The notes below the pieces were generated by a model. The model did no database searches, was not told the DNA's origin, and saw only the letters and a list, made by a program, of their open reading frames with translations. From IMG/VR virus record IMGVR_UViG_2667527966_000006: DNA of 64,000 bases. The stretch is one strand, 5' to 3'. Below, in pieces: positions 1-37,875 of the stretch (within the stretch, counting starts at the first letter, position 1; each line of letters starts with the position of its first letter). Source of the stretch: an uncultured virus (IMG/VR IMGVR_UViG_2667527966_000006). Lineage: Duplodnaviria > Heunggongvirae > Uroviricota > Caudoviricetes. The translations under genes were made by a program, and so were the position numbers.

Positions 1-3000
1 AAAAATGAGAAAGCGATTGATGCGACGTCCAATGCATTATCAACCCTCAACAGCACCGTGACCCAGCAGGGAAAAGACATTACGTCGAACTCCAACAGCA
101 TCACTTCGCTGTCAAACCAGATGGTTAACGGCCGCCAGAACATGTGGGTGCGTAGCGTATACAACGTACAACTGGCGAACAATACCACTGAGCCGACCTT
201 TAGCGATATCAACGGTAAGGCGCCAATCTCGATCGATGAGGTTCCTGACGCGGCAAAACTGGACTTTGCGAGCGCCGGCAGTTACGTGATCGCGCATTAC
301 AAAGCCTTCGTGAAAGTCAATGCTGATACCACCATCACTATGGCACCAGGTTCTCGTGTTTTTGATGATACGGGCGCCGTGTACGTGAACGGTGTTAGGG
401 TTGCCTTTGGTAATGCGAGCTGGAATACGGTTAGCTTTGATCTGAAAGCTGGCTGGAGCACGGTTGAGTTCCTGGTGAACCAATGGACTGGTCAGGCTTA
501 CATTAACCTCGGTTTTAAACTGTCCGAGAAGGTAGCCCAGCTGAATTCTGCTCTTGGGATGAACGCGCTTTCGAATGCCATTAGCGCCGTCACCTCAAAC
601 GTCAGCACCGTAGGTGATCGCGTCACGAGCACCTCACAGAGCGTTACTGATCTGCGAAATAGCCTCGAACAGACCAACGCTAATCTGGCGAATAAGGCAG
701 ATGCACAGGCGCTGTCTACGCTGCAAAATACGGTCTCCAAGCAGGGGGATACGATTTCCAGCCAGGGTAACAGCATCACGAACCTGAATAACACCCTGAC
801 CGCTGCCAGAAACGCTGGTGACAACCTGATCCCGAACTACGATTTCCTGCAGGGTGCAACTGCGTGGGATACCCAGTATCCGGCGGGCGTCACTTTCGGC
901 AACTTTGGTGATGGTAAGGCTGGGGTTAAGCTGAACCGGACGACCACTACCAGCCCAGGCATCTTCTCCAACAACAACAAGCCGCTGCCGCTTAATGGTC
1001 AGCGCAAATATCGTGTTGTGGTTAAAGCCAAGGGCGTGTCCGGGGCGATGAACATGTTGATCCGGCGCCAGAATAAAATCGGCCAGACCGACAGCAATTA
1101 TGAAGATAAAAACGTCACACTAACCAGTGAGTGGCAGACCATTACCTGGGAGACTGGACTTACTGCCTCTAACGCTGATGGCCAGAACTTTAAGCTTTAC
1201 GCGCACCCGGCTAATGCCGAAATCTGGGTTGATACATTTAAGGTCTTTGATATCACGGATGAGGTGAAGATCAAGGCTAATAGCGATGCGCTGTCTACGT
1301 TGTCGAGCACGGTGACACAGCAGGGTGACAAGATCATCAGTCAGGGCAACAGCATCACTAAGTTGACCAATGACCTCGAAGCCGCTGACGCAAACATCGC
1401 GAAAAAGGCCGATCAGTCGGCAGTCACTACGCTGACAGGTCGGGTAGAGAAGACGGAGTCCGGTCTGACGGCGGCGAACAGCAACATTACGTCGCTCAAC
1501 AGCTCTCTGAACCAGCAATCCAAACGCGGCGCTAATCTGCTTCCTGATGGCACTTTTGAAAGCTACGCGGTTGGGCACAATCTATCAAATAATCGCGTTA
1601 TCGTGACCACTGATGACTCGCATGGCGGTAATAAGTGCATCCGTGTGACGCGTCCGAATGATTACAACGCTAACGCAACTGATAACAGCGATAATCACAT
1701 TTTCAGCGGTTTCCAGGTACGCGATAACGCAGTCTTCTATATGGAATGCTGGGTTAAGCGGGATGCCAAGAGTACCGCTATGGCCGAGAATGCGCAGATC
1801 TCCATTGGCTTATCGCTCCAGTATCAGGACAACTCCTGGCAGTGGCCGGCAGTTACCAAAGCGGCAAAGGATCTCTCTTCAACTCAATGGACGAAGGTTT
1901 CTGGTTACCTGAAATCAACGAAGAGCGGTATTAAGCAGGCAATGGTCAGGATTTCTATTCCTAACGTTAGCAGCGTTAAGGCGGGTAACTCATTCCTCAT
2001 TGATGACCTGGTCATTACCGAAGTGACTGATGCCTACAATGCGCAAAGTACAGCAGACGCTAATGCCAATGCGATTTCGACACTGGACTCGACCGTCTCC
2101 CAACAGGGTGACCAGATCACCAGTCAGGGTAACAGCATCACCAAACTGACAAATGACCTGGCAACGACCAATAACAACGTCAGTAAAAAAGCTGATCAGA
2201 GCGCTTTAAGCGTGTTGTCCGGGCGCGTCGATCAAACAGAATCGGGTTTATCCTCTGCGAATAGCAGTATCACTGCGCTTAATTCATCTGTACGCGCAGG
2301 GAATGCGACAAGTGGCGATTTGATTAGCAACCCGACATTTGACCCAGAGTTTAGTCAGATGGGCTTCACTGTGGTTTCCAGCTCGTCTGAGGGCGTGCCA
2401 GCCAATTGCCCATACGCTTATGTCGCACGCATTGCGGCTCGCGACCATCACCCAAATTTTGCTGCTATTCCGGCGACATTGGGGGATGTCTATGAAATGT
2501 CTGCTCTCGTCGCGTGTGGTACCGGCTCCGCTGATTTCAACCTGTATCTCGGAACCGCAACAAGGCCAAGCGGCAGCGTGGGCGCGCCTCTGTCATCCGG
2601 CGGCAACCGCAAGGCGTCGGCCACATGGCAGCGAGTAACCTGGCGATTCAAAATTACTCAGGGGATTGTCGATCGCGGCTTCTTCCGTCCATTCCTGCAA
2701 ATTAACCAGTCCAGCCCATTCGGCACCGTCTGGTATGTGACTGACTGGCATCTGCGGAACGTAACCGACTCCTCCAAAGTCCAGGATTCCCTCGACGCCA
2801 CGGCGAAAGCGGTTGATTCGCTGACCTCTACGGTAAATCAGCAGGGGGAGAACATCTCAAGTATTGGTACACGCACTACCAATCTTGAGAACAATTTGAG
2901 AACAACAAATGCAAACGTTGCTCAAAAAGCGGACGCAAATGCTCTGACGGCACTGACCAACCGTGTTACCCAGACCGAAAAAGACATTAACTCAACGAGT

Positions 3001-6000
3001 TCTTCTGTCACGAATCTGAACAACAAGGTTGATGCAATTTCTGTCGGCGGTACAAACCTGATCAAGAACTCCGGCGATATGGTCGGCTGGTCGAACGTTG
3101 TCAGCGATACGTATCGTGGTAACGCGGTAATTGGCGCAACTGTAAAAGCCGGCTCCGGTTACAGGGATTTGCGGGAAATCACGCTTGAGTCGCCGGTCGA
3201 TGCAGGTGAGTACGTTTACAGCTTCTATGCGAAAGGTGGTGTTGCCGGCCAGACGATGACGGCGTTCTTCTACAATCCGAACACCACAACGTCTATCGAG
3301 ACCAGCCAGGGTGCGAAAGGTAACAACAGTGATGGTCGTGCGCAGTTCACGCTGACCACTTCATGGGCCCGCTATTGGGTTAAGTGGAAACAGACACCTA
3401 CCACGGGCACCAAGCGCCTGATTCTGTGCCGTATCGAGAGCAATACCTCCAAAGACCAGACGGTGTACATCAACAGTCCGAAGTTTGAGGTAGGTAACGT
3501 TGTTTCCGACTGGAACGAGTCTCCGTCTGATAGCGCCAGTGCGTCGGCTGTGGATTCGCTGACAACGAAAGTGAATCAGCAAGGCACTTCCATTAGCTCT
3601 ATCGGAAATCGCACCACATCGTTGGAAAACGGGCTATCGACAGCTCAGAACAACATTGCCAAGAAGGCTGATGCTTCTGCATTGCAGGATCTCCGGAACA
3701 CGGTGACATCTCAGGGGGGCGATTTAACTGCGGCGAACAGTAGCATTACCAGCCTGCAGGCCTCGATGAACCGTCGCACTGTGTTTACTGTCACTGCACG
3801 GGGGAATGGCAACAGCGTAACTCCTGGGGTTTTTGATGAAAGCGGCAAGAACCTGTTTACCCCTGGTCGCAGCTGGGCGCTGGTCACTTTTGCAAAACAC
3901 AGCGACGGATCAACGGTGATTGCGACATCCAAAACATACGATGTCTTTGGCAGCGCGAATAATGGTGCCACGATGTCGGCTGATATCGAGGCGTTGGCCA
4001 GTGGCACTTACGTTTGCGTCCTGACATTCGATGAGCCATCTGGCAACCGAGGTAAGATATTGTCTGCTCTGGAATCTCTTGGTGGTACATCCGAAGTCGT
4101 CAACTCCTTGCCGTATCGTGGTGCCTACATTCTCCTTGGCCGCAAAGGCATGAAGCCTGGCGATGGTCTGGAGCTGCGTGCGCCAACCGGTGGCGACGGC
4201 ACCGCCCACATCTCGACCTCAGTCGAGTTTGTGAACGGGGTAATGATGGGGTTGGGCGCCGCCGGCGGTGTGATGATGAAGGCTGATGCGAACGCGTCGG
4301 CAATTACCACGCTCCAGAACACAGTGAAGACCCAGGGGGATAATATTGACTCCCTGAGCTCCTCGACAACGGCGCTGGAAAACAGCCTTGCGTCCAGTAA
4401 CGCCAGCGTGGATGCAGCAAGCCAGATCCCCGGGAACCTGATCGTAAACCCGTCTTTTGAGCGTGGTACGGAGGGCTATACAGGCTGGAGCGGGATTGCC
4501 ACGGTGGTAACGCTGCAGGTTCCACATCTTGGCACCAAAGCCGCCAAACTGGCGGCGGGCGGTTCTGCAGGCGTGGGCCAGAAGATCTCCTTCAAAAAGG
4601 ATCGGTCGTACAAAATTGGTATCTGGGCAAAGCAGGACCCTAATACCACCATTCAGTCGACTGACAACACAAAATTCCGTGTGGCAGAAGGTAACGGTCT
4701 AATCGCAAGTAAGGCTTATGGCCCGTTTACTTCGAACTGGCAGGAAGTGTCCTGGACCTGGAAGGCGACAAAGGATGTCGTTGCTGACGTTCAGTTCACT
4801 GCTTTCTTGTCCGCAGGCGCGATGTACTTTGATGATTTTTATGTCGTCGATGTGACCGACTCTGTTGAAACTCAGGCGAACTCGAGCGCGATCACTAAAC
4901 TCGATAGTCGTGTGACCAAAACAGAGAATGATATCACCAGCCAGGGCAGCCAAGTTACGCAACTTAAGAATGACCTTGCGACCACAAACACAAATGTTTC
5001 GAAGAAAGCTGATGCGGCTGCGTTAACGGCATTAACGAATCGCGTCACGCAGAACGAGAAAGAAATTGAAACCCAGAGCAGCCAGACAACTTCGCTCAAA
5101 AACTCTTTGAGCACTGTTCAGGCAATGGGTAGTAACCCGTGGTTTGATGGTTCTCTGGAGACGTACTCCGAAAACCAGCAGATCAGCGGCTCGCGTGCGG
5201 TCGTCGTCAGCTCTCAGAAACGAAGCGGAACGAAGTCGTTGCGTGTTTCCCGCGGCGCCGGTGAGGGCGGAAACAGCGATAAATCCATTGGTAAGTGGAT
5301 TGCTCTGCGAGAAAATGCGGTATTCCGCATTGAACTCTGGGCGATGATGCCGACAGATCAGTCGCCATCATCCGGGTGGTCAACAATCGTTGGTTTGCAG
5401 ACCCAAAACGCTGCCAACAATAACAACTGGCCGTCGGCGATCACCATCACTGAAGGTTCGTTGGGGGGCAGAGGGACCTGGAAGAAATTCACCGGCACGC
5501 TCCGTGTAGCGACTGGTCACACTCGCGGCGTGTTCTGGATTTCTACCCGCGGATCAACTGGCGCCGGTACGCCGGGGTATGATCTGTATATCGATGATGT
5601 AGTTGTCACCGATATCACGGACGCAAAAGAGGCACAGGATTCGGCTAATGCGAACGCATCCGCTCTCACCAGCCTTACCTCACGTGTTACCAATGTGGAA
5701 GGGCAGGTAACATCCCAAGCGTCTCAGCTGTCCTCTTTGACGTCCCAGGTGAATGATGCGTCTTCGAAGGTTGATCAGATGGCACAGACCATTACCAACA
5801 ACGAGAAAACGCAGTCGTCGCTGAACACCAGTTTGCAATCGCAAATTGACGCGCAGGCATCGGCAAACATCAAGAACCAGACGGAGTTGAATAATGCCAC
5901 CACCTCGCTGGCGGCAATTAAGTCAACTCAGCAGACCCAGGCTACGACGATTAGCGCACTGTCTCAGCAGCAGACGAATTTAACGGCCCAGGTAGGAGGC

Positions 6001-6867
6001 CAGTCAGCCGAGCTGCAGGAGCTGAAGAAAACGGTTGTTGAAAACGGCAACGTTAACAGCACCTGGATGGTCAAAATGGAAACCAACAGCAACGGTAAAA
6101 AGTATGCTGCTGGTATAGCTTTAGGTATCGATGGCAAAAATTTGCAGAGCCAGTTTCTGGTTCAGGCTGATCGCTTCGGCTTAATCAACACCTCTAACGG
6201 GAATACGACTACACCTTTCGTTATCGAAAATGGCGTTGCGTATATTAATGCCGCTGTCATTAAAGATGGCTCGATCACCAATGCGAAAATTGGAGGCGAA
6301 ATCCGTTCTGACAATTTCGTTAATGGTTCAAATGGCTGGAGAATTGGAAAAGACGGTAGTTCACAGTTCAACAACGTAGTTATTCGTGGTGAAGTTCACG
6401 CTAATACTGGTGTACTGAACAACGTGACTATTAATGAGAACTGCACTGTGCTTGGCACTGTTCAAGCCAATAAAATTGTTGGTGACGTTGTGACAATGAC
6501 CGACCGTGTAGTTAAGAACTGGCCGCCTACCGCCGACACCTCATCAGGCACTCGTTACCCTATAGCTTCAGTGCAGGGTATGCCATTTGAACGCCGTATG
6601 GTGTTTAACGGTTCAATTAGCATTCAACAGACTTGGCGTCAAAACGTAACAATCCGCGTTGATGAAACAGTCGTATGGACGTTTGACTCTGGAAATGATG
6701 GTAGGGATTTTGAAACATCAATTTTCTCCATCCGTATACCTGCATCGAATTACGGACAAACGCAGAATATTACGATCCAATGGCCTAACCGCGGTGACAG
6801 CGGACAGTTCCGATTTACAGGGGTTATCTCGATGTACAGAACTACTGGCTCCATCTCTCTGGCTTAA
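1..6867 (+). CDS. Giant tail tip/host-specificity protein (J-like), 5' part outside window; repeated carbohydrate-binding-like domains, ILEI-like domain and C-terminal DUF1983-like region
   Basis: Frame is open from base 1. Globular 'NL(I/L)xNxxF...W' modules alternate with coiled-coil spacers (KKADxxAL..L). C-terminal 'KYAAGIALG..SQFLVQADRF..ITNAKIG..IRSDNF' is typical of phage J proteins. Confidence 0.85.
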   Translation, partial: KNEKAIDATSNALSTLNSTVTQQGKDITSNSNSITSLSNQMVNGRQNMWVRSVYNVQLANNTTEPTFSDINGKAPISIDEVPDAAKLDFASAGSYVIAHYKAFVKVNADTTITMAPGSRVFDDTGAVYVNGVRVAFGNASWNTVSFDLKAGWSTVEFLVNQWTGQAYINLGFKLSEKVAQLNSALGMNALSNAISAVTSNVSTVGDRVTSTSQSVTDLRNSLEQTNANLANKADAQALSTLQNTVSKQGDTISSQGNSITNLNNTLTAARNAGDNLIPNYDFLQGATAWDTQYPAGVTFGNFGDGKAGVKLNRTTTTSPGIFSNNNKPLPLNGQRKYRVVVKAKGVSGAMNMLIRRQNKIGQTDSNYEDKNVTLTSEWQTITWETGLTASNADGQNFKLYAHPANAEIWVDTFKVFDITDEVKIKANSDALSTLSSTVTQQGDKIISQGNSITKLTNDLEAADANIAKKADQSAVTTLTGRVEKTESGLTAANSNITSLNSSLNQQSKRGANLLPDGTFESYAVGHNLSNNRVIVTTDDSHGGNKCIRVTRPNDYNANATDNSDNHIFSGFQVRDNAVFYMECWVKRDAKSTAMAENAQISIGLSLQYQDNSWQWPAVTKAAKDLSSTQWTKVSGYLKSTKSGIKQAMVRISIPNVSSVKAGNSFLIDDLVITEVTDAYNAQSTADANANAISTLDSTVSQQGDQITSQGNSITKLTNDLATTNNNVSKKADQSALSVLSGRVDQTESGLSSANSSITALNSSVRAGNATSGDLISNPTFDPEFSQMGFTVVSSSSEGVPANCPYAYVARIAARDHHPNFAAIPATLGDVYEMSALVACGTGSADFNLYLGTATRPSGSVGAPLSSGGNRKASATWQRVTWRFKITQGIVDRGFFRPFLQINQSSPFGTVWYVTDWHLRNVTDSSKVQDSLDATAKAVDSLTSTVNQQGENISSIGTRTTNLENNLRTTNANVAQKADANALTALTNRVTQTEKDINSTSSSVTNLNNKVDAISVGGTNLIKNSGDMVGWSNVVSDTYRGNAVIGATVKAGSGYRDLREITLESPVDAGEYVYSFYAKGGVAGQTMTAFFYNPNTTTSIETSQGAKGNNSDGRAQFTLTTSWARYWVKWKQTPTTGTKRLILCRIESNTSKDQTVYINSPKFEVGNVVSDWNESPSDSASASAVDSLTTKVNQQGTSISSIGNRTTSLENGLSTAQNNIAKKADASALQDLRNTVTSQGGDLTAANSSITSLQASMNRRTVFTVTARGNGNSVTPGVFDESGKNLFTPGRSWALVTFAKHSDGSTVIATSKTYDVFGSANNGATMSADIEALASGTYVCVLTFDEPSGNRGKILSALESLGGTSEVVNSLPYRGAYILLGRKGMKPGDGLELRAPTGGDGTAHISTSVEFVNGVMMGLGAAGGVMMKADANASAITTLQNTVKTQGDNIDSLSSSTTALENSLASSNASVDAASQIPGNLIVNPSFERGTEGYTGWSGIATVVTLQVPHLGTKAAKLAAGGSAGVGQKISFKKDRSYKIGIWAKQDPNTTIQSTDNTKFRVAEGNGLIASKAYGPFTSNWQEVSWTWKATKDVVADVQFTAFLSAGAMYFDDFYVVDVTDSVETQANSSAITKLDSRVTKTENDITSQGSQVTQLKNDLATTNTNVSKKADAAALTALTNRVTQNEKEIETQSSQTTSLKNSLSTVQAMGSNPWFDGSLETYSENQQISGSRAVVVSSQKRSGTKSLRVSRGAGEGGNSDKSIGKWIALRENAVFRIELWAMMPTDQSPSSGWSTIVGLQTQNAANNNNWPSAITITEGSLGGRGTWKKFTGTLRVATGHTRGVFWISTRGSTGAGTPGYDLYIDDVVVTDITDAKEAQDSANANASALTSLTSRVTNVEGQVTSQASQLSSLTSQVNDASSKVDQMAQTITNNEKTQSSLNTSLQSQIDAQASANIKNQTELNNATTSLAAIKSTQQTQATTISALSQQQTNLTAQVGGQSAELQELKKTVVENGNVNSTWMVKMETNSNGKKYAAGIALGIDGKNLQSQFLVQADRFGLINTSNGNTTTPFVIENGVAYINAAVIKDGSITNAKIGGEIRSDNFVNGSNGWRIGKDGSSQFNNVVIRGEVHANTGVLNNVTINENCTVLGTVQANKIVGDVVTMTDRVVKNWPPTADTSSGTRYPIASVQGMPFERRMVFNGSISIQQTWRQNVTIRVDETVVWTFDSGNDGRDFETSIFSIRIPASNYGQTQNITIQWPNRGDSGQFRFTGVISMYRTTGSISLA

Positions 6868-20505: not shown

Positions 20506-20704
20506 GCGAGAGAAGGAAACCCTGCGTGAAATCAGCCAATGGTCATGTTTCTACGCTAACTGGAAACCCAAGACACGAGCCAAGCTCGAGCAGATGAACC
20601 TGGTGGCCAATGTCGAACCGGAAGGAAAGGCAGAGAACTACCAGTTAACGAATAAGGGGCGAGAGCTGCTTGAGCAACTGATTGAAGCAGGAGAATACTC
20701 ATGA
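20489..20704 (+). CDS. Small winged-helix-like protein
   Basis: AAGGAG RBS; 'LSKREKETL...L....LV......YQLTNKGRELL' pattern. Confidence 0.6.
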   Translation: MIVLSKREKETLREISQWSCFYANWKPKTRAKLEQMNLVANVEPEGKAENYQLTNKGRELLEQLIEAGEYS

Positions 20705-20916
20705 TTCCATACATCGTATTGTCTTTTTTTGGAGGCGTCGCCCTTGGCTTCATCATCTGTCATGACTTGATTAAGAAGTTTGCCCGTAACTTACATTTCT
20801 GTAGCTCCACGGGGCGACTCCTACAGAGCATATCTGAAGATGGTATAATTAATGTCATCAACCAAAAGAGTGCTTCATATGACACTAGCTCAACTGAAAG
20901 ATATTTATGCTCGTAA
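20701..20916 (+). CDS. Small membrane protein, 3' end possibly replaced by an insertion
   Basis: N-terminal TM 'IPYIVLSFFGGVALGFII'; tail runs into the AT-rich insert. Confidence 0.4.
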   Translation: MIPYIVLSFFGGVALGFIICHDLIKKFARNLHFCSSTGRLLQSISEDGIINVINQKSASYDTSSTERYLCS

Positions 20917-21445: not shown

Positions 21446-21481
21446 GTAAGTATTTACTTATTAAATTGATACAACTATGAT
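21446..21481 (+). promoter_or_regulatory. Putative sigma70 promoter of ncRNA cluster overlapped by operator A
   Basis: TTTACT (21453-58)-17 bp-TATGAT (21476-81); GTAAGTATTTAC at 21446-57 covers the -35. Confidence 0.55.
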
Positions 21482-21489
21482 TGGCTTGT

Positions 21490-21615
21490 TTTCGTTGAAA
21501 CGCGACTGTTTGAACGTTTAAAGATAACTGCAAACGACAATCAGTACCTGGCAGTAGCCTAAAAAGCTAAACACCAGCGAGGTCAGTTTCCAGCCTCGTC
21601 ACCGAAATGGGACAC
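21490..21615 (+). ncRNA. tmRNA-like mRNA domain (tag ANDNQYLAVA*) lacking a tRNA-like domain
   Basis: ATAACT-GCA AAC GAC AAT CAG TAC CTG GCA GTA GCC TAA at 21524-21562; stop codon in a hairpin loop; possible pseudoknots on both sides. Confidence 0.65.
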
Positions 21616-21642
21616 ACTAAGCGAGTGTGATTGCAAAACGCA

Positions 21643-21674
21643 GGTAGGGCATCTGGTTAACCAGTGCCCTTACC
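21643..21674 (+). ncRNA. Structured element 1 of ncRNA array
   Basis: GGTA-GGGCA-t-CTGGTT/AACCAG-TGCCC-t-TACC near-perfect hairpin. Confidence 0.45.
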
Positions 21675-21675
21675 G

Positions 21676-21759
21676 ATGAGGTAACAGAATGGGCGGTTGG
21701 GTTTTATGTCCAACACATCCCGGCTCCCAAAGGCCCGACCGTCTATCCTGTTACGTCAT
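21676..21759 (+). ncRNA. Structured element 2 (long hairpin)
   Basis: ATGAGGTAACAGAATGGGCGGTTGGGTTTT pairs with AAAGGCCCGACCGTCTATCCTGTTACGTCAT using several G-U pairs. Confidence 0.5.
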
Positions 21760-21832
21760 TTCTGTTACTTATGTCGTTTAGTTTTGGGTTAAAAATGGCG
21801 ACGTAACACGGCTGGTTAGGTGAGCCAGCACG

Positions 21833-21925
21833 CAACGTTGAGACCACTGGTTTTTGCATCACAGAGGCAGAACCGGCAGACATGTAGGGCCAAGTACATT
21901 AATCCGTTCCGTGGTCTCAACGTTG
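21833..21925 (+). ncRNA. Structured element 3 (15-bp closing stem, two internal hairpins)
   Basis: CAACGTTGAGACCAC/GTGGTCTCAACGTTG perfect; inner CTGGTTTTTGC/GCAGAACCGG and ATGTA/TACAT. Confidence 0.55.
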
Positions 21926-21985
21926 TGGTCACGGATTCATTATCCTTCTGGTTATAGCCATTGTTGTCACTGCCCCGTGGCCACA
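21924..21985 (+). ncRNA. Structured element 4 (11-bp stem, 40-nt loop)
   Basis: TGTGGTCACGG/CCGTGGCCACA with one G-U pair. Confidence 0.5.
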
Positions 21986-22197
21986 GCGATTAAATGATTC
22001 CATACATCTAATTTGATCTGAATGAAAACTCTCCTCAACCCTCGGAGAGTATTTGAAGGTCTTGGCTTGTAAGCGTTTGGTGAACACGTAAAGCACAAGT
22101 GGCAGAAAACGGTAGGACTGCTGCGAACGACACCGGTGAATCGGCGATACGGCCCCACAAGTCCGTAAATCGACAGAGGCTGACGGTGTCAACCTTA

Positions 22198-22272
22198 GAT
22201 GGTGTAGCTCAGTGGTAGAGCGGTTGACTGTTAATCAGCTGGTCGGTGGTTCGAATCCACCCACCATCGCCA
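22198..22272 (+). tRNA. tRNA-Asn (GTT)
   Basis: Cloverleaf: GATGGTG/CACCATC acceptor, GCTC/GAGC D stem, CT-GTT-AA loop, GGTGG-TTCGAAT-CCACC T arm, encoded CCA. Confidence 0.95.
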
Positions 22273-22363
22273 CAACGGTAAGGGTATTTGGACGACAGCA
22301 AGGAAGGCGCGCTCTTTGGCTGTTCGCGACGGATCTGATTCCCTGAATGCCCTTACCGTTGTG
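22271..22363 (+). ncRNA. Structured element 5 (18-bp closing stem, internal hairpins)
   Basis: CACAACGGTAAGGGTATT/AATGCCCTTACCGTTGTG. Confidence 0.55.
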
Positions 22364-22416
22364 ATGAATTGCAGCTCGTTGAAGCAACCAGAAGATAAGC
22401 ATCTGGCGTCACAACG
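22357..22416 (+). ncRNA. C4-like antisense RNA
   Basis: 10-bp closing stem CGTTGTGATG/CGTCACAACG with two inner hairpins; 'CCAGAAGATAAGCATCTGG' resembles the C4-family 3' hairpin. Confidence 0.5.
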
Positions 22417-22419
22417 AAC

Positions 22420-22506
22420 GGAGGATAGAGGGCATGGCGCCCAAGCGGTCTTGAAAACCGTCCCATTGCGAAAGCGATGATGGTTCGATTCCATTATCCT
22501 CCGCCA
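22420..22506 (+). tRNA. tRNA-Ser (TGA), probable 8/4 fold
   Basis: GGAGGATA/TATCCTCC acceptor, GCGGT-CTTGAAA-ACCGT anticodon arm, long variable arm CATTGC-GAAA-GCGATG, ATGG-TTCGATT-CCAT T arm, GCCA end. Confidence 0.88.
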
Positions 22507-22507
22507 A

Positions 22508-22586
22508 CACAGCGTTGAGCGGTTTGGTTTGATTTCTTATCGAAAAGACTCCGCCTGTCACCATGGCCAGACCGCTCAACGCTGTG
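22508..22586 (+). ncRNA. Structured element 6 (21-bp stem, 37-nt loop)
   Basis: CACAGCGTTGAGCGGTTTGGT/GCCAGACCGCTCAACGCTGTG with G-U pairs. Confidence 0.55.
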
Positions 22587-22658
22587 ATAGACATTACGGC
22601 AGACGTTCTTTAACCATAGCTTCTAGTATCTTAGCAACACTTTTTCAGCGCAAAATCC

Positions 22659-22680
22659 AAAGGGGCTTCGGCCCCTTTTT
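22659..22680. terminator. Bidirectional Rho-independent terminator closing the ncRNA cluster
   Basis: AAAGGGGC-TTCG-GCCCCTTTTT. Confidence 0.85.
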
Positions 22681-22682
22681 GC

Positions 22683-24218
22683 TTAGTTAGGCCGTTGTTG
22701 AATTGCCGATACAATTGCTGCTCTAAACTCCGGTGCATCGCTCTTTAACCGATAATCATCAAGCGAGTCATATATATCTAGTAGCATTTTGCGGTAATTA
22801 GGACTTGCTGAGTTTAAATGCCCCTTTGTCACAAAATTTAATAATGAGAGCTTAATATCCTCTAATTCTTCATGTCTGTTTAATCTAATGTAAGAGGAAA
22901 CAACCGAGCCCAAGATATTTCTTCTAGTTGACAAGCTCAATTTGTTATTGGGTATAACTTGCTGCAACATATCACTCAGTAATTTTGAAGCCTGCTTCGG
23001 AATGTAGTGAATATCGAAGTGATCTTTATTCAAATTTTGCTGAGGGATTTCTGCCTTATCAATATATATGCTTTGCTCCATCCAGTCTGTAGAAATATAA
23101 AACAAACGGCATAAAATATAATGAAAAGGAGTCTCCCACCCACCAATATAATTATCTGTTTGCCTGTCCATGTTCTTTAATATTTTAGCCGCAAAATGGT
23201 CATAATAATGAAGCCACAGATGATCTTGATGCCCCTGATGAATAGCCTCATGAACCATGATTTGAAACATAGACACCCCAGAGTAAATGGGGCATCTATA
23301 CTTCGAGATATCGCTATAGAATCCTAATGGTTTATTGAGCGATTTAATAAGATTTTCATCCTCCTCGAGGATACATAAGATATTATCGCCAATATCACGA
23401 TAGATCTGTGTTTTCTCAGCAAACGCAGCGTTAGAGAAGAAAAAGTGTAAAATACGGTTGCTTTCAGGAATCAACAAGCGATGCCCTAGTCTTATATTAA
23501 TATTATTCTTAAGTTCAACATATAGACGACTATTAGGTGAACTGAGCAATGCTCTGATGAAATTATAAGAAAAATCAGAACGAACTGTTGGCTCAATCTT
23601 GATTAACTCTAGGCAGAGAGAGGGGTGTGCTAGAGCAAAATGATTTGTGAGTTCAGGTGAGGAAACAATATTTATTAATGCTTCGCGTGAATGTTCGGCA
23701 GCTGTATCACTGTTAGTTAACCGAAGTTTTTCGGCAATTTTATTAAGAAAGCTCCGCTTTGCTGGTTTATCAATTATTGATATTAGCCTCCCTAATTGCG
23801 GCGCAAGCAATTGAGCAAGATCATCATATTTTTTAGTTAGGTGTAAATTTTCGACTAATTCGAGAAATATTTTTGTCCTGCTAGATGATAGTTTTGGGTT
23901 TTTTAAGCGTGCTAAAAGATAAATTGAAACAGTAAGTAATATAAGATATACGGCACTTGAACTATCTAATCCCCACATCCAAGGGCCAAAACTAAAATAT
24001 AAACCCAATGCTTTCAAAGTTGGTGCGAACACTAAGTAATTACTTAGGATAAATGAAGTAACAATAATTGCCCAATCCCACCAAGCCAGACAAAATCGCA
24101 AGCGAAGACGTGCATTTGGGGTTATAAGAGCCCAAACCGCAGCGATGACGCCCAGTATGGTTAGTAGACTTGTGGTATCAATTTTGTCTGGAGGTGTCAT
24201 AATTAATTGCAATCCCAT
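22683..24218 (-). CDS. AT-rich accessory membrane protein (3 N-terminal TM + large helical domain with HExxH)
   Basis: 511-aa ORF antisense to backbone; 'HEAIH' motif; start may be 24200. Confidence 0.75.
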   Translation of the reverse strand: MGLQLIMTPPDKIDTTSLLTILGVIAAVWALITPNARLRLRFCLAWWDWAIIVTSFILSNYLVFAPTLKALGLYFSFGPWMWGLDSSSAVYLILLTVSIYLLARLKNPKLSSSRTKIFLELVENLHLTKKYDDLAQLLAPQLGRLISIIDKPAKRSFLNKIAEKLRLTNSDTAAEHSREALINIVSSPELTNHFALAHPSLCLELIKIEPTVRSDFSYNFIRALLSSPNSRLYVELKNNINIRLGHRLLIPESNRILHFFFSNAAFAEKTQIYRDIGDNILCILEEDENLIKSLNKPLGFYSDISKYRCPIYSGVSMFQIMVHEAIHQGHQDHLWLHYYDHFAAKILKNMDRQTDNYIGGWETPFHYILCRLFYISTDWMEQSIYIDKAEIPQQNLNKDHFDIHYIPKQASKLLSDMLQQVIPNNKLSLSTRRNILGSVVSSYIRLNRHEELEDIKLSLLNFVTKGHLNSASPNYRKMLLDIYDSLDDYRLKSDAPEFRAAIVSAIQQRPN

Positions 24219-27342: not shown

Positions 27343-27373
27343 ATGATTCCATACTTGGTAGGTATGGAATCAT
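27343..27373. other. Candidate recombination site (12-bp inverted arms, 7-bp asymmetric spacer)
   Basis: ATGATTCCATAC-TTGGTAG-GTATGGAATCAT, 100 bp upstream of a tyrosine recombinase. Confidence 0.55.
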
Positions 27374-27471: not shown

Positions 27472-28572
27472 ATGAAAAACACGTTTGACAGAGCACGCGC
27501 AGCGGAAAACACGTCACAGGAAGCGATCACCTATCTGGATCGGGCATCGCAGATGGATGCCAGGTCGGTCTCGATGCAGGGTGCCGATCTGACTTTCGCC
27601 GACGCATTCATGTTATTCACTCGCTTATCATTATTGATAACTCGCCGCCGGCCAGAGATAGCTGTCCATTGTGTTTTGATACATGTTCTCCCGCATATCG
27701 CTCAGGAAAAAGTAAGTAACCTGAATAGAATAATGGTGAATCAGCTGGTCAACCCGCTGATCCTTGAAGGGAAGATCGTGATGGGTCGCCGTGTTTTTTC
27801 CATCATGAAGCAGTTCCTGGGATGGTGTGCCTTCCAGGGGATTATCGAAACATCGCCCCTGAATGATATGTCGCTGAACAAAGTTGCCGGCGGCGCGAAG
27901 ACGGCCCCGCGGGAACGATGCCTGACGGACGCTGAGGTTTGGGTATTCTGGAATGTCTGGGACTATTTCGACGTATGTCCAGGCACGAAATGGGCGGCAA
28001 GGCTTTGCCTCGTAGCTGCCAGACGTCCAGATGAAGTGCTGCGGGCCAGAGTAAGTGAGTTCGACCTTAAGCTAAATGTATGGAATCAAGGGTCTCGCAA
28101 CAAATCGGCCCGGTCGCACACCCTTCCGATGAGCTCACTGATGCGGAAGTGCGTAGAAGAATTGATTGAATATGGCGCCGGCAGCCAGTGGCTCGTCCCG
28201 TCGAACAAAAAGAAAGCTGATACGCCAATGTCAAAGGTGGCAATAGCCCAGGCGTTGAGGCGGATTCTGGAGCGGCCGGAGCTTGGGGAAGTGGAGTCGT
28301 TTACCCCACGTGATCTGCGTAGAACGGCACGCAGCTACTTTCCAGCCCTTAATATTTCTCAGGAAGTATCACGTAAGATCATGAATCATAGTCTGGAAGG
28401 TATCGACCGTGTATACGACCGATATGACTACATGGATCAGATGCGAGAAGCCCTTGAGAGCTTCTCATCGTACATCTCGTCGATTGTTGAGCAACCAGAT
28501 TTAGAAGAAATTGACCACAAAATGAAGGGAGATCGCCTATCCACCGAGCTGATCAGAGTAAACTTCTCATAG
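27472..28572 (+). CDS. Tyrosine recombinase/integrase
   Basis: 'ARRPDE' (R), 'RDLRRT', 'MNHS' and 'VYDRY' catalytic motifs. Confidence 0.88.
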   Translation: MKNTFDRARAAENTSQEAITYLDRASQMDARSVSMQGADLTFADAFMLFTRLSLLITRRRPEIAVHCVLIHVLPHIAQEKVSNLNRIMVNQLVNPLILEGKIVMGRRVFSIMKQFLGWCAFQGIIETSPLNDMSLNKVAGGAKTAPRERCLTDAEVWVFWNVWDYFDVCPGTKWAARLCLVAARRPDEVLRARVSEFDLKLNVWNQGSRNKSARSHTLPMSSLMRKCVEELIEYGAGSQWLVPSNKKKADTPMSKVAIAQALRRILERPELGEVESFTPRDLRRTARSYFPALNISQEVSRKIMNHSLEGIDRVYDRYDYMDQMREALESFSSYISSIVEQPDLEEIDHKMKGDRLSTELIRVNFS

Positions 28573-37323: not shown

Positions 37324-37449
37324 TCATGGAGTTAGTAGAGAAGCCGTCCAGATCTAACGACCTTTAACTCCTTCCAATAATCCTTCCAAACTGACTACTC
37401 AGGCTCAGGCCGTCATCGTTATCGCAGCGGATAGATTACCGAAATGAAA

Positions 37450-37665
37450 TTAGCTCAACGTAACTACGTTTGAAGCAGCAGGGCCTTTAGCACCGTTCTC
37501 AATAGAGAACTCAACTTTTTGGCCTTCTTCCAGGGTACGGAAGTTGTTGCTCTGGATGGCAGAGAAATGTACGAACACGTCTTTGCTGCCGTCTGCTGGG
37601 GTAATAAAACCGAAGCCTTTATCAGCGTTAAACCATTTTACTAAACCAGTCATTTTGTTAGACAT
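37450..37665 (-). CDS. CspA-family cold-shock protein (CspB/CspG-like)
   Basis: [36 protein letters not shown] (RNP1/RNP2). Confidence 0.95.
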
Positions 37666-37875
37666 AGAGATTACCTTCATTATTTGAGAGCCACACAACG
37701 CGGCGAAATTGGTCTGAGAGATTGGTACTTACTTGGGCACTTAGGAGGAGACTCACGGAGAAGGGTAATCTTTGGATAACACCTGAACTTCGGACTGCTT
37801 TACTAAAACTGCTTTCATAAGGTCTGTCTTGCAAACCGACGCAATCATTAACGCATGGCCTTTCTGTTTGTGCAA
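37666..37875 (-). promoter_or_regulatory. cspA/cspB-type promoter and long 5' UTR (cold-responsive leader)
   Basis: TTGCAC-17 bp-GTTAAT on the minus strand, then CGTCGGTTTG...AGTTTTAGTAAAGCAGT..TTCAGGTGTTAT resembling the E. coli cspB leader. Confidence 0.7.

What the first reader, a model, noticed from the sequence alone, without database searches (positions are those of the whole stretch)
21643..22680. Operator-controlled polycistronic array of long-stemmed small RNAs interleaved with tRNAs
Seen: about 1.2 kb with no credible CDS between one promoter and one terminator. It is tiled almost end to end by elements with 10-30-bp closing stems: 21643-74, 21676-759, 21833-925, 21924-985, 22129-190, 22271-363, 22357-416 and 22508-586. 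Mismatches are mostly G-U on the + strand, which indicates RNA rather than DNA structure. Stems are unrelated in sequence, so this is not CRISPR, and the loops are variable. Two loops are complements of RBS/start-like strings (TTCATTATCCTTCT and GCCATTGTTGT at 21936-21968; CACATCCCGGCTCCC at 21714-21728). Inference: a cassette of antisense or decoy RNAs released by RNase P/RNase III processing, with tRNAs as punctuation. I know of no description of this array.
Basis: partly seen in the sequence, partly recalled or inferred. Interest (0 to 1): 0.82.

Follow-up and report, generated by a model that had tools for sequence, protein, structure and literature searches.

The report
Phage RNA array targeting host tmRNA
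This gene-free stretch of a Klebsiella phage-plasmid is a real string of folded RNAs and two tRNAs, headed by an unannotated RNA that can pair with the host's ribosome-rescue RNA (tmRNA) and carries its own copy of the protein-degradation tag, so phages may rewrite or jam the host's rescue system.

Summary
The stems are real and favour the + strand. The window is an SSU5-group phage-plasmid. The unit starts 160 bases before the flagged range, at a promoter overlapped by a dispersed operator palindrome.

Its 5' arm can form 20 base pairs across the host tmRNA resume site. It also occurs in P1, FelixO1, Det7, HK633 and Chaseviridae.

Two stems belong to a family shared with lambda's late leader that carries swappable cargo; RNase III cutting is inferred. 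The idea that loops are antisense to ribosome-binding sites found no support.

Most likely: a lytic-phase polycistron whose head RNA lends the host tmRNA a phage tag template, or blocks it. No expression data. This scan found the head RNA and the stem family before on other DNA, and the antisense-arm lead came from those notes; I re-tested it. My ten literature searches found no description.

The parts
21447..21460 (.). Operator-like palindrome overlapping the -35 hexamer; member of a family dispersed over the element
   Evidence: 30 matches in the window against 1.6 expected; present over the -35 in 91 of 93 SSU5-type loci. Repressor binding is inferred.
21453..21481 (+). Sigma-70-type promoter (TTTACT, 17 nt, TATGAT); predicted start near 21487
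   Evidence: 9 of 12 consensus bases; -10 variants in relatives lie closer to consensus. Start site is inferred.
21487..21641 (+). tmRNA-like RNA without tRNA-like domain (head RNA)
   Evidence: Weak Rfam tmRNA-family hits below cut-off; 507 phage records match; covariation; no ARAGORN tmRNA.
21488..21511 (+). Antisense arm: two 10-bp blocks (21488-97 and 21502-11) complementary to E. coli tmRNA nt 95-104 and 82-91, covering U85, A86 and part of the resume codon
21525..21562 (+). Resume context (U85/A86 equivalents at 21525-26) and tag frame ANDNQYLAVA-stop (21530-62)
   Evidence: Direct reading; A86 equivalent invariant in 28 of 28 aligned sequences; coding signature.
21548..21577 (+). Helix-5 equivalent with the stop codon in its loop
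   Evidence: helices 1 and 2
21578..21641 (+). Two tandem pseudoknots (21578-21613 and 21613-21641)
   Evidence: Compensatory variants in all four stems across phage lineages; three of the four stems counted.
21643..21674 (+). Type-A stem A1, minimal member of the stem family shared with lambda's late leader; probable RNase III punctuation
   Evidence: 20 of 24 bases match lambda's 3' part by direct comparison of the strings printed.
21676..21759 (+). Module B1: about 26-bp stem with a pyrimidine-rich loop and a conserved CCCGG core; SSU5 group only; target not found
   Evidence: 6 of 23 pairs change on both sides in 6 sequences, mostly from the Cronobacter element.
21760..21832 (+).
   Evidence: z -2.7; conserved in the SSU5 group.
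21833..21925 (+). Module C1: 15-bp closing stem with multibranch cargo; ends paralogous to C2
   Evidence: 2 of 15 positions change on both sides in 22 variants.
21924..21985 (+). Module D: 11-14-bp closing stem with two single-stranded stretches; target not found
   Evidence: G-C/A-U switches between lineages; null target searches.
21994..22008 (+). 15-mer repeated elsewhere in the element; probably a DNA recombinase half-site rather than RNA cargo
22129..22190 (+). Module E: weak stem around a cargo that sits inside a type-A stem in E. coli relatives; probable pseudoknot
   Evidence: compensatory variants read by eye from those outputs.
22198..22272 (+). tRNA-Asn(GUU)
22271..22363 (+). Type-A stem A2 (21 bp) with hairpin cargo
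   Evidence: 3' arm 15 of 19 identical to lambda's stem; z -6.5.
22357..22416 (+). Module F: small two-hairpin RNA shared with P1, D6, Sashavirus, other Salmonella phages and lambdoid phages
   Evidence: 116 phage records match the A2-F query, most of those listed over F.
22420..22506 (+). tRNA-Ser(UGA) with an 8-bp acceptor stem and 4-bp T stem (8/4 form)
   Evidence: stems read directly; class described in PMC5389517.
22508..22586 (+). Module C2: 20-22-bp stem with a C-rich loop motif; target not found
   Evidence: 2 of 20 positions change on both sides in 12 variants; null searches.
22658..22681 (+). Intrinsic terminator-like hairpin with a T run
   Evidence: Direct reading; same hairpin in 39 of 93 SSU5-type loci, many truncated or with longer arrays; not listed by the scan.

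Best explanation
The stretch 21487-22681 is one non-coding transcript of an SSU5-group phage-plasmid. It is held down by the element's repressor in the plasmid state and made on lytic induction (inferred). Host RNase III cuts the long stems and RNase P cuts in front of the tRNAs (inferred), releasing tRNA-Asn, tRNA-Ser and several small RNAs that phages swap as modules (modularity shown). The cassette serves to keep translation under phage control. Its head RNA pairs through a 5' arm with the host tmRNA across the resume site (complementarity shown, pairing in vivo inferred), which silences the host's tag template. The phage RNA's own resume site and tag frame follow directly behind the duplex. 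The ribosome loaded by the host tRNA-like domain and SmpB then resumes on the phage template, as in a hybrid two-piece tmRNA (inferred, the least certain step). This gives the phage control of the degradation tag, or restores rescue when the host template half has been cut. My odds: processed array 0.75, arm pairs with tmRNA 0.85, template swap about 0.5.
For: Structure: 12 of 23 pairs change on both sides, 92.9% of cells pair, 0 of 500 shuffles reach this, slid controls pair 34-41%; six variants of one pseudoknot stem all pair. Tag: 47 distinct tag DNAs in 211 loci give 28 peptides; codon 10 is Ala in 47 of 47; close pairs differ by 94 synonymous against 51 non-synonymous changes where 26% of possible changes are synonymous. 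The A86 equivalent is invariant in 28 of 28; A86 sets the frame in E. coli (PMC2481249 passages). Arm: -26.3 kcal/mol with E. coli tmRNA, reached by 1 of 200 shuffles, against -12.2 with its own template; the best site spans the resume codon for 19 of 22 distinct arms against 49 of 440 shuffles; the site is the only match in the E. coli chromosome; block 1 is exact in 94 of 107 arms while the RNA's own codon 3 varies. No tRNA-like domain or SmpB in five whole phage or plasmid records. Punctuation: 69 type-A stems in 96 loci enclose 32 cargo classes; 107 of 150 head RNAs have a type-A arm on at least one side. In P1 the homologue lies in the C1-repressed ban operon before trnA.
Against: No expression, end-mapping or pairing data: the RNA runs were contigs that also covered flanking genes. 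Single-sequence significance of the arm is modest, and one of 50 other 27-mers of the array scored better against tmRNA (-29.6; not identified). With 60-nt windows and unrestricted loops the SSU5-type arms were not significant (z near 0 to -0.9). Arm windows were anchored on the complementary motif, which biases. A wobble test was inconclusive (11 wobble against 17 broken cells). Arm-host covariation could not be tested because the host site hardly varies and no member outside Enterobacterales was found. The K. pneumoniae tmRNA itself was not fetched. Aligned sequences are related and the structure was drawn from them. Close-pair counts are not independent, and the search pattern fixed tag length, stop and part of codons 1-3. 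Two loci carry a broken tag. RNase III cutting of type-A stems is not shown; E. coli K-12 has no intact copy to check against published cut sites. Many tags still end in hydrophobic-Ala-Ala, so the gain from a swap is unclear.
Confidence: 0.5

Rival explanations
1. The head RNA is an anti-tmRNA: it pairs over the resume site and blocks tagging, so that rescue passes to ArfA or ArfB and truncated phage proteins escape degradation. Its template half only titrates SmpB, S1 or ribosomes, or stabilises the RNA.
For: The duplex covers U85, A86 and the resume codon, and a helix over this region is proposed to block tagging in PMC2481249. Lambdoid, Det7 and P1 arms extend over pseudoknot 1, nt 56-110. 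A tRNA-like-domain-only tmRNA of phage DS6A is a published inhibitor form (PMC4131195, PMC11915505 passages). ArfA rescue does not degrade the product (PMC8012679).
Against: A blocker needs no tag frame, yet the frame shows synonymous excess, an invariant final Ala and an invariant A86 equivalent.
Confidence: 0.27
2. The head RNA is a splint or decoy that protects tmRNA from, or soaks up, a tmRNA-cutting defence nuclease, in the way phage tRNAs replace cut host tRNAs. Translation of its tag is incidental.
For: It sits in or beside tRNA clusters in unrelated phages. Phage tRNAs counter tRNA-cutting defences (PMC11555353 passages). RelE cuts tmRNA and tmRNA is the main RtcB target (PMC9650030 passages). 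CoCoNuT systems are predicted to engage tmRNA (PMC11090510 passages).
Against: No defence system cutting this site was found in the papers seen; the RtcB ligation sites cluster in pseudoknots 3 and 4; masking the resume site would itself stop host tagging.
Confidence: 0.12
3. One reading: the stem loops are antisense RNAs against ribosome-binding sites of host, own or competitor mRNAs, like DicF or P1 C4. This can hold for modules B1, D and C2 alongside the best explanation.
For: Loops keep short C/U-rich cores across lineages. [quoted passage not shown]
Against: Own start regions: shuffles did as well or better in 29 of 30, 6 of 30 and 21 of 30 cases. Host pattern searches at or below chance.
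Confidence: 0.25
4. The elements are DNA palindromes or decayed remnants (tmRNA fragment from an integration site, tRNA debris) with no RNA function.
For: One motif in the array does look like a DNA site. Real tmRNA fragments occur at prophage ends (L181).
Against: G-U strand bias, pseudoknot covariation and coding signature. The head RNA lacks the tmRNA 3' end that integration duplicates, and host tmRNAs score only about 20 bits against 80-138 for members.
Confidence: 0.04

Closest known systems
tmRNA (SsrA; Rfam RF00023, RF01849, RF01850, RF04321), including full phage tmRNAs
   Same: Resume context with A86, a 10-codon tag starting AN(D/E) and ending in Ala, helix 5, downstream pseudoknots.
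   Different: No tRNA-like domain, no CCA end, no SmpB; an antisense arm to the host tmRNA stands where the 5' half would be; all Rfam scores are below cut-off.
Coding piece of two-piece (circularly permuted) tmRNA
   Same: A separate RNA carries the tag template and would be held to the acceptor part by base pairing.
   Different: No acceptor piece and no half of the tRNA-like domain was found in the element; the predicted partner is the host's one-piece tmRNA.
tRNA-like-domain-only tmRNA of mycobacteriophage DS6A (PMC4131195, PMC11915505)
   Same: A phage-borne half tmRNA proposed to act on host trans-translation.
   Different: It is the opposite half; DS6A's form is thought to titrate SmpB, with no antisense arm described in the passages seen.
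dicBF operon of prophage Qin and the P1 ban operon leader (dicF-like region, trnA, trnT)
   Same: Repressor-controlled polycistron from which small RNAs or tRNAs are released by host RNases; P1 carries the head RNA and module F.
   Different: No DicF family match here; modules B1-D are confined to the SSU5 group.
Stem in phage lambda's late leader (44.79-44.86 kb); RNase III sites of the late RNA (Daniels et al. 1988, title seen only in a reference list)
   Same: Type-A stems A1 and A2 match its arms.
   Different: I did not verify that the published cut sites lie in this stem; cargo differs.
(8/4) tRNA-Ser of bacteriophages (PMC5389517)
   Same: 8-bp acceptor stem, 4-bp T stem, long variable arm, G73, serine anticodon.
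   Different: Nothing found; this part is already known.

Membership tests
tmRNA (one-piece) | tRNA-like domain with alanine acceptor stem, T arm and CCA end | tested here: not met
   No ARAGORN call; no half-domain pattern near the element other than the two tRNAs; RF00023 under cut-off in 5 of 5 whole records.
tmRNA (one-piece) | Resume site with A86 and an internal tag frame ending in a stop codon | tested here: met
tmRNA (one-piece) | Helix 5 and pseudoknots after the tag | tested here: met
   Helix and two pseudoknots with compensatory changes.
tmRNA (one-piece) | Pseudoknot 1 and helix 2 before the tag | tested here: not met
   Only about 43 nt lie between predicted start and resume codon, filled by the arm and a short hairpin.
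tmRNA (one-piece) | Tags non-stop proteins in vivo | not testable with these tools
   Needs a reporter assay.
Two-piece tmRNA | Permuted gene with an acceptor piece and a coding piece that together rebuild the tRNA-like domain | tested here: not met
   RF04321 21.7 bits against cut-off 47, matching only the tag part; no acceptor piece.
RNase III substrate stems | Intramolecular stem of about two helical turns | tested here: inconclusive
   Met by B1, A2 and C2 (20-26 bp); A1, C1, D, E and F are shorter. The length rule is recalled; the position score of PMC6212723 (passages) was not applied.
RNase III substrate stems | rnc-dependent double cut with 2-nt 3' overhang | not testable with these tools
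   Only contigs were available; no intact type-A stem in K-12.
Antisense sRNAs of the DicF or C4 kind | Match to the family model | tested here: not met
   No DicF or C4 hit in the array up to E 10; DicF was found in the control locus L172.
Antisense sRNAs of the DicF or C4 kind | Loop complementary to a cognate ribosome-binding region | tested here: inconclusive
   Null in own start regions and in the genomes searched; low power; no Klebsiella chromosome or competitor phage set searched.
CRISPR array | Identical direct repeats at regular spacing | tested here: not met
(8/4) tRNA-Ser | 8-bp acceptor stem and 4-bp T stem, long variable arm, G73 | tested here: met
   Direct reading of 22420-506.

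The most novel reading that the evidence does not exclude
Many unrelated enterobacterial phages make a trans-acting tag-template RNA that docks on the host tmRNA by base pairing and is translated in place of the host tag, forming a hybrid two-piece tmRNA. It is delivered from modular, RNase-punctuated small-RNA cassettes in which a standard stem carries exchangeable cargo RNAs.
Probability: 0.45. Interest if true: 0.93.

Novelty: categorically new. Interest (0 to 1): 0.8.

Why it matters
If true, trans-translation, the main bacterial ribosome-rescue route, can be re-templated or switched off in trans by a 155-nt viral RNA. That would be a new kind of phage-host interaction, hidden in unannotated DNA of P1, FelixO1, Det7, HK633 and the SSU5 phage-plasmids. 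It is directly testable in E. coli K-12 with standard tagging reporters, and would give a natural tool to change the tag. The novelty rating refers to the head RNA. The array as such is a new variant of known phage tRNA and small-RNA polycistrons, and the tRNAs are known.

Tried and rejected
No whole genome is held for the window; a near-identical plasmid record supplied 40 kb of the rest of the element, about 5 kb was not fetched. Rfam found only tRNA at cut-off in the array.

Expression: 11 runs on record as RNA, in 4 studies, hold the stretch; I laid 4 of them; all were contigs that also covered flanking genes, so nothing follows.

Loop targets: no excess in own start regions, none in E. 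coli K-12, three enterobacterial hosts, SSU5, Cyrano, P1 or lambda, each searched with some of the four patterns. The E. coli near-matches were read and were fewer than chance would give.

Host covariation: model R1 found 3 of 150 family genomes and 2 of 150 order genomes, with only 24 candidates scored per genome; one hit is the seed genome, one overlaps a host tmRNA, one weak hit (L215) was not examined. The genome scan gave 5 loci, 3 real.

A 60-nt duplex test was too noisy for SSU5-type arms. The wobble test was inconclusive. Stem D counts had an offset error and were redone; the 8 of 24 figure is an off-by-one and was recounted by eye; the acceptor check was also offset. The module E pattern returned nothing, so E rests. 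PMC6212842 was a wrong identifier. The supplement of PMC6212723 was listed, not read. Considered and rejected: CRISPR, DNA cruciforms, integration-site remnant, a conserved mini-ORF at 21994.

Full report
Context. The window is part of an SSU5-group phage-plasmid of Klebsiella. The 1.6-kb query matches Klebsiella phage-plasmids at 88-100% and SSU5 and Cyrano at 77-83% over part of its length. The array lies between the DNA ligase block and a variable gene on the opposite strand.

Observation. All eight stems are present. Seven fold better than shuffles (z -3.0 to -8.1), one does not (-1.4), and the whole stretch scores z -10.4. Long stems are four times denser than in the rest of the window. 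The + strand is favoured in 6 of 8 elements and in most variants from relatives. Rfam finds only tRNA at cut-off. Stems keep pairing through changes on both sides: B1 6 of 23 pairs, C1 2 of 15, C2 2 of 20, D several G-C/A-U switches. The order of modules is conserved in the 5' half across the SSU5 group and variable after tRNA-Asn.

Control. A promoter-like site at 21453-81 is overlapped by a palindrome that occurs 30 times in the window against 1.6 expected and over the -35 in 91 of 93 SSU5-type loci. In P1 the homologous RNAs follow the annotated C1 operator of the ban operon. Repression in the plasmid state is inferred from this.

The missed head RNA. Directly after the promoter, 21530-62 reads ANDNQYLAVA-stop in a tmRNA-type resume context. 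I noted this before consulting earlier notes. It gives weak hits to tmRNA models and matches 507 phage records and 258 of 5426 E. coli genomes. It lies in the tRNA cluster of FelixO1, upstream of that of Det7, in the late leader of HK633, in P1's ban leader and in Chaseviridae; none of the records I opened annotates it as an RNA. Across 211 loci there are 47 tag DNAs and 28 peptides; the last residue is Ala in 47 of 47; close pairs show 94 synonymous and 51 non-synonymous changes where 26% of possible changes are synonymous (pairs not independent, pattern fixed length and stop). The A86 equivalent is invariant in 28 of 28 sequences collected without requiring it; A86 sets the reading frame in E. 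coli (PMC2481249, passages). Helix 5 and two pseudoknots are supported by compensatory changes: 12 of 23 pairs, 0 of 500 shuffles, slid controls 34-41% paired, and stem variants listed. The sequences are related and the structure came from them, so these are not probabilities. No tRNA-like domain and no SmpB were found in five whole records.

The antisense arm. Earlier notes of this scan suggested that the 5' end is complementary to host tmRNA. I tested it. The window's arm forms two 10-bp helices with E. coli tmRNA nt 82-91 and 95-104, at -26.3 kcal/mol, reached by 1 of 200 shuffles, against -12.2 with its own template. A two-strand fold gains 15 kcal/mol and leaves host helix 5 intact. For 19 of 22 distinct arms the best site spans the resume codon, against 49 of 440 shuffles. 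Lambdoid, Det7 and P1 arms differ in sequence and reach further, over nt 56-110. The site is the only match in the E. coli chromosome; in three other hosts the only second match is the element itself. Against: one of 50 control 27-mers scored better, 60-nt windows were not significant for SSU5-type arms, arm windows were anchored on the motif, the wobble test was inconclusive, and the host site gave the same score in 15 of 33 tmRNAs of the order, so host tracking could not be tested. The K. pneumoniae tmRNA was not fetched.

The stems. A1 and A2 belong to a family also present in lambda's late leader. In the fetched loci 69 such stems in 96 loci enclose 32 different cargoes, and 107 of 150 head RNAs have one on at least one side. 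The cargo of module E sits in a type-A stem in E. coli relatives, and module F recurs in P1, D6 and lambdoid phages. This shows exchangeable cargo in standard stems. RNase III cutting is inferred from stem length, from the title of Daniels et al. 1988 (seen only in a reference list) and from the DicF precedent (bioRxiv 2023.04.14.536235, passages). It is not shown.

Loops of B1, D and C2 keep short C/U-rich cores, but paired with 192 own start regions no better than shuffles, and pattern searches in hosts and phages were null. The idea stays open at low odds.

Mechanism. The arm masks the host's resume determinants while the phage RNA presents the same determinants 18 nt behind the duplex, next to host pseudoknot 1. 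A conserved, apparently translated tag fits use as a replacement template better than pure blocking. Most tags end Ala-Val-Ala; changes at the last two alanines raise the KM for ClpXP (PMC7652416, passages), so tagged products may be handled differently, but other members end in Ala-Ala. The tRNA-cluster setting fits a role in keeping translation going against RNA-cutting defences (PMC11555353, PMC9650030, PMC11090510, passages). All functional steps are inferred.

Literature. Ten searches listed no paper describing a template-only phage tmRNA, an RNA antisense to tmRNA, or this array; I saw listings and abstract starts for these, and passages of the papers cited. The 2025 tmRNA database paper lists standard, permuted, intron and tag-less forms and 79 phage sequences, and rejects truncated forms (PMC11915505, passages); its supplement was not seen. 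A 2025 review of phage small RNAs does not mention tmRNA (PMC12197685, term count). The library lacks most subscription papers, including the P1 genome paper and the 1988-1994 lambda and dicF papers, which could bear on the stems.

Verdict. Observation confirmed; interpretation partly supported; the main finding is the head RNA, which fits no family tested and was seen before by this scan on other DNA. Interest 0.8.

Noticed in passing
window 20701, 21994, 27343-27373, 28075, 33589: A 15-mer occurs as an inverted pair (12-bp arms, 7-bp spacer) just upstream of the tyrosine integrase at 27472, and as single copies on + before it and on - after it. The same 3-4 copies occur in SSU5, Cyrano and the Cronobacter and Kluyvera elements.
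   Followed up: partly
window 20701-20916: Small hydrophobic ORF (phrog_6302) whose first five codons are that same 15-mer in all relatives seen.
   Followed up: partly
L283 (E. coli K-12 2545721): One exact copy of the 15-mer in the E. coli chromosome; chance not excluded.
   Followed up: no
window 21936-21949 and 22420-22427: The loop of module D is complementary over 8 bases to the 5' strand of the array's own tRNA-Ser; only in the Klebsiella lineage.
   Followed up: no
L092, L144, L160, L162: Several type-A cargoes in lambdoid-type phages carry a tRNA T-arm-like hairpin, some resembling mini-tRNAs.
   Followed up: no
L004, L175, L037: Longer arrays hold a further two-hairpin RNA type with a conserved 3' hairpin, not matched by Rfam in L175 and L037 at E 0.5.
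   Followed up: no
window 22683-24218 (-): A variable 511-aa gene (phrog_13820, unknown function) converges on the array's terminator; this slot holds different genes in relatives.
   Followed up: no
window 58-6867: Long tail protein with internal repeats, extending beyond the window start.
   Followed up: no
window 37417-37840 (-): cspA thermoregulator RNA match, 188.6 bits, inside the phage-plasmid.
   Followed up: no
L176: A Klebsiella relative has lost the 3' half of the array, with tRNA-Asn cut, and has a stop codon inside the tag frame.
   Followed up: no
plasmid hits H71, H72: Yersinia pestis 100-kb plasmids match the 5' part of the array (query 148-556, 82%), so they carry the head RNA region.
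   Followed up: no
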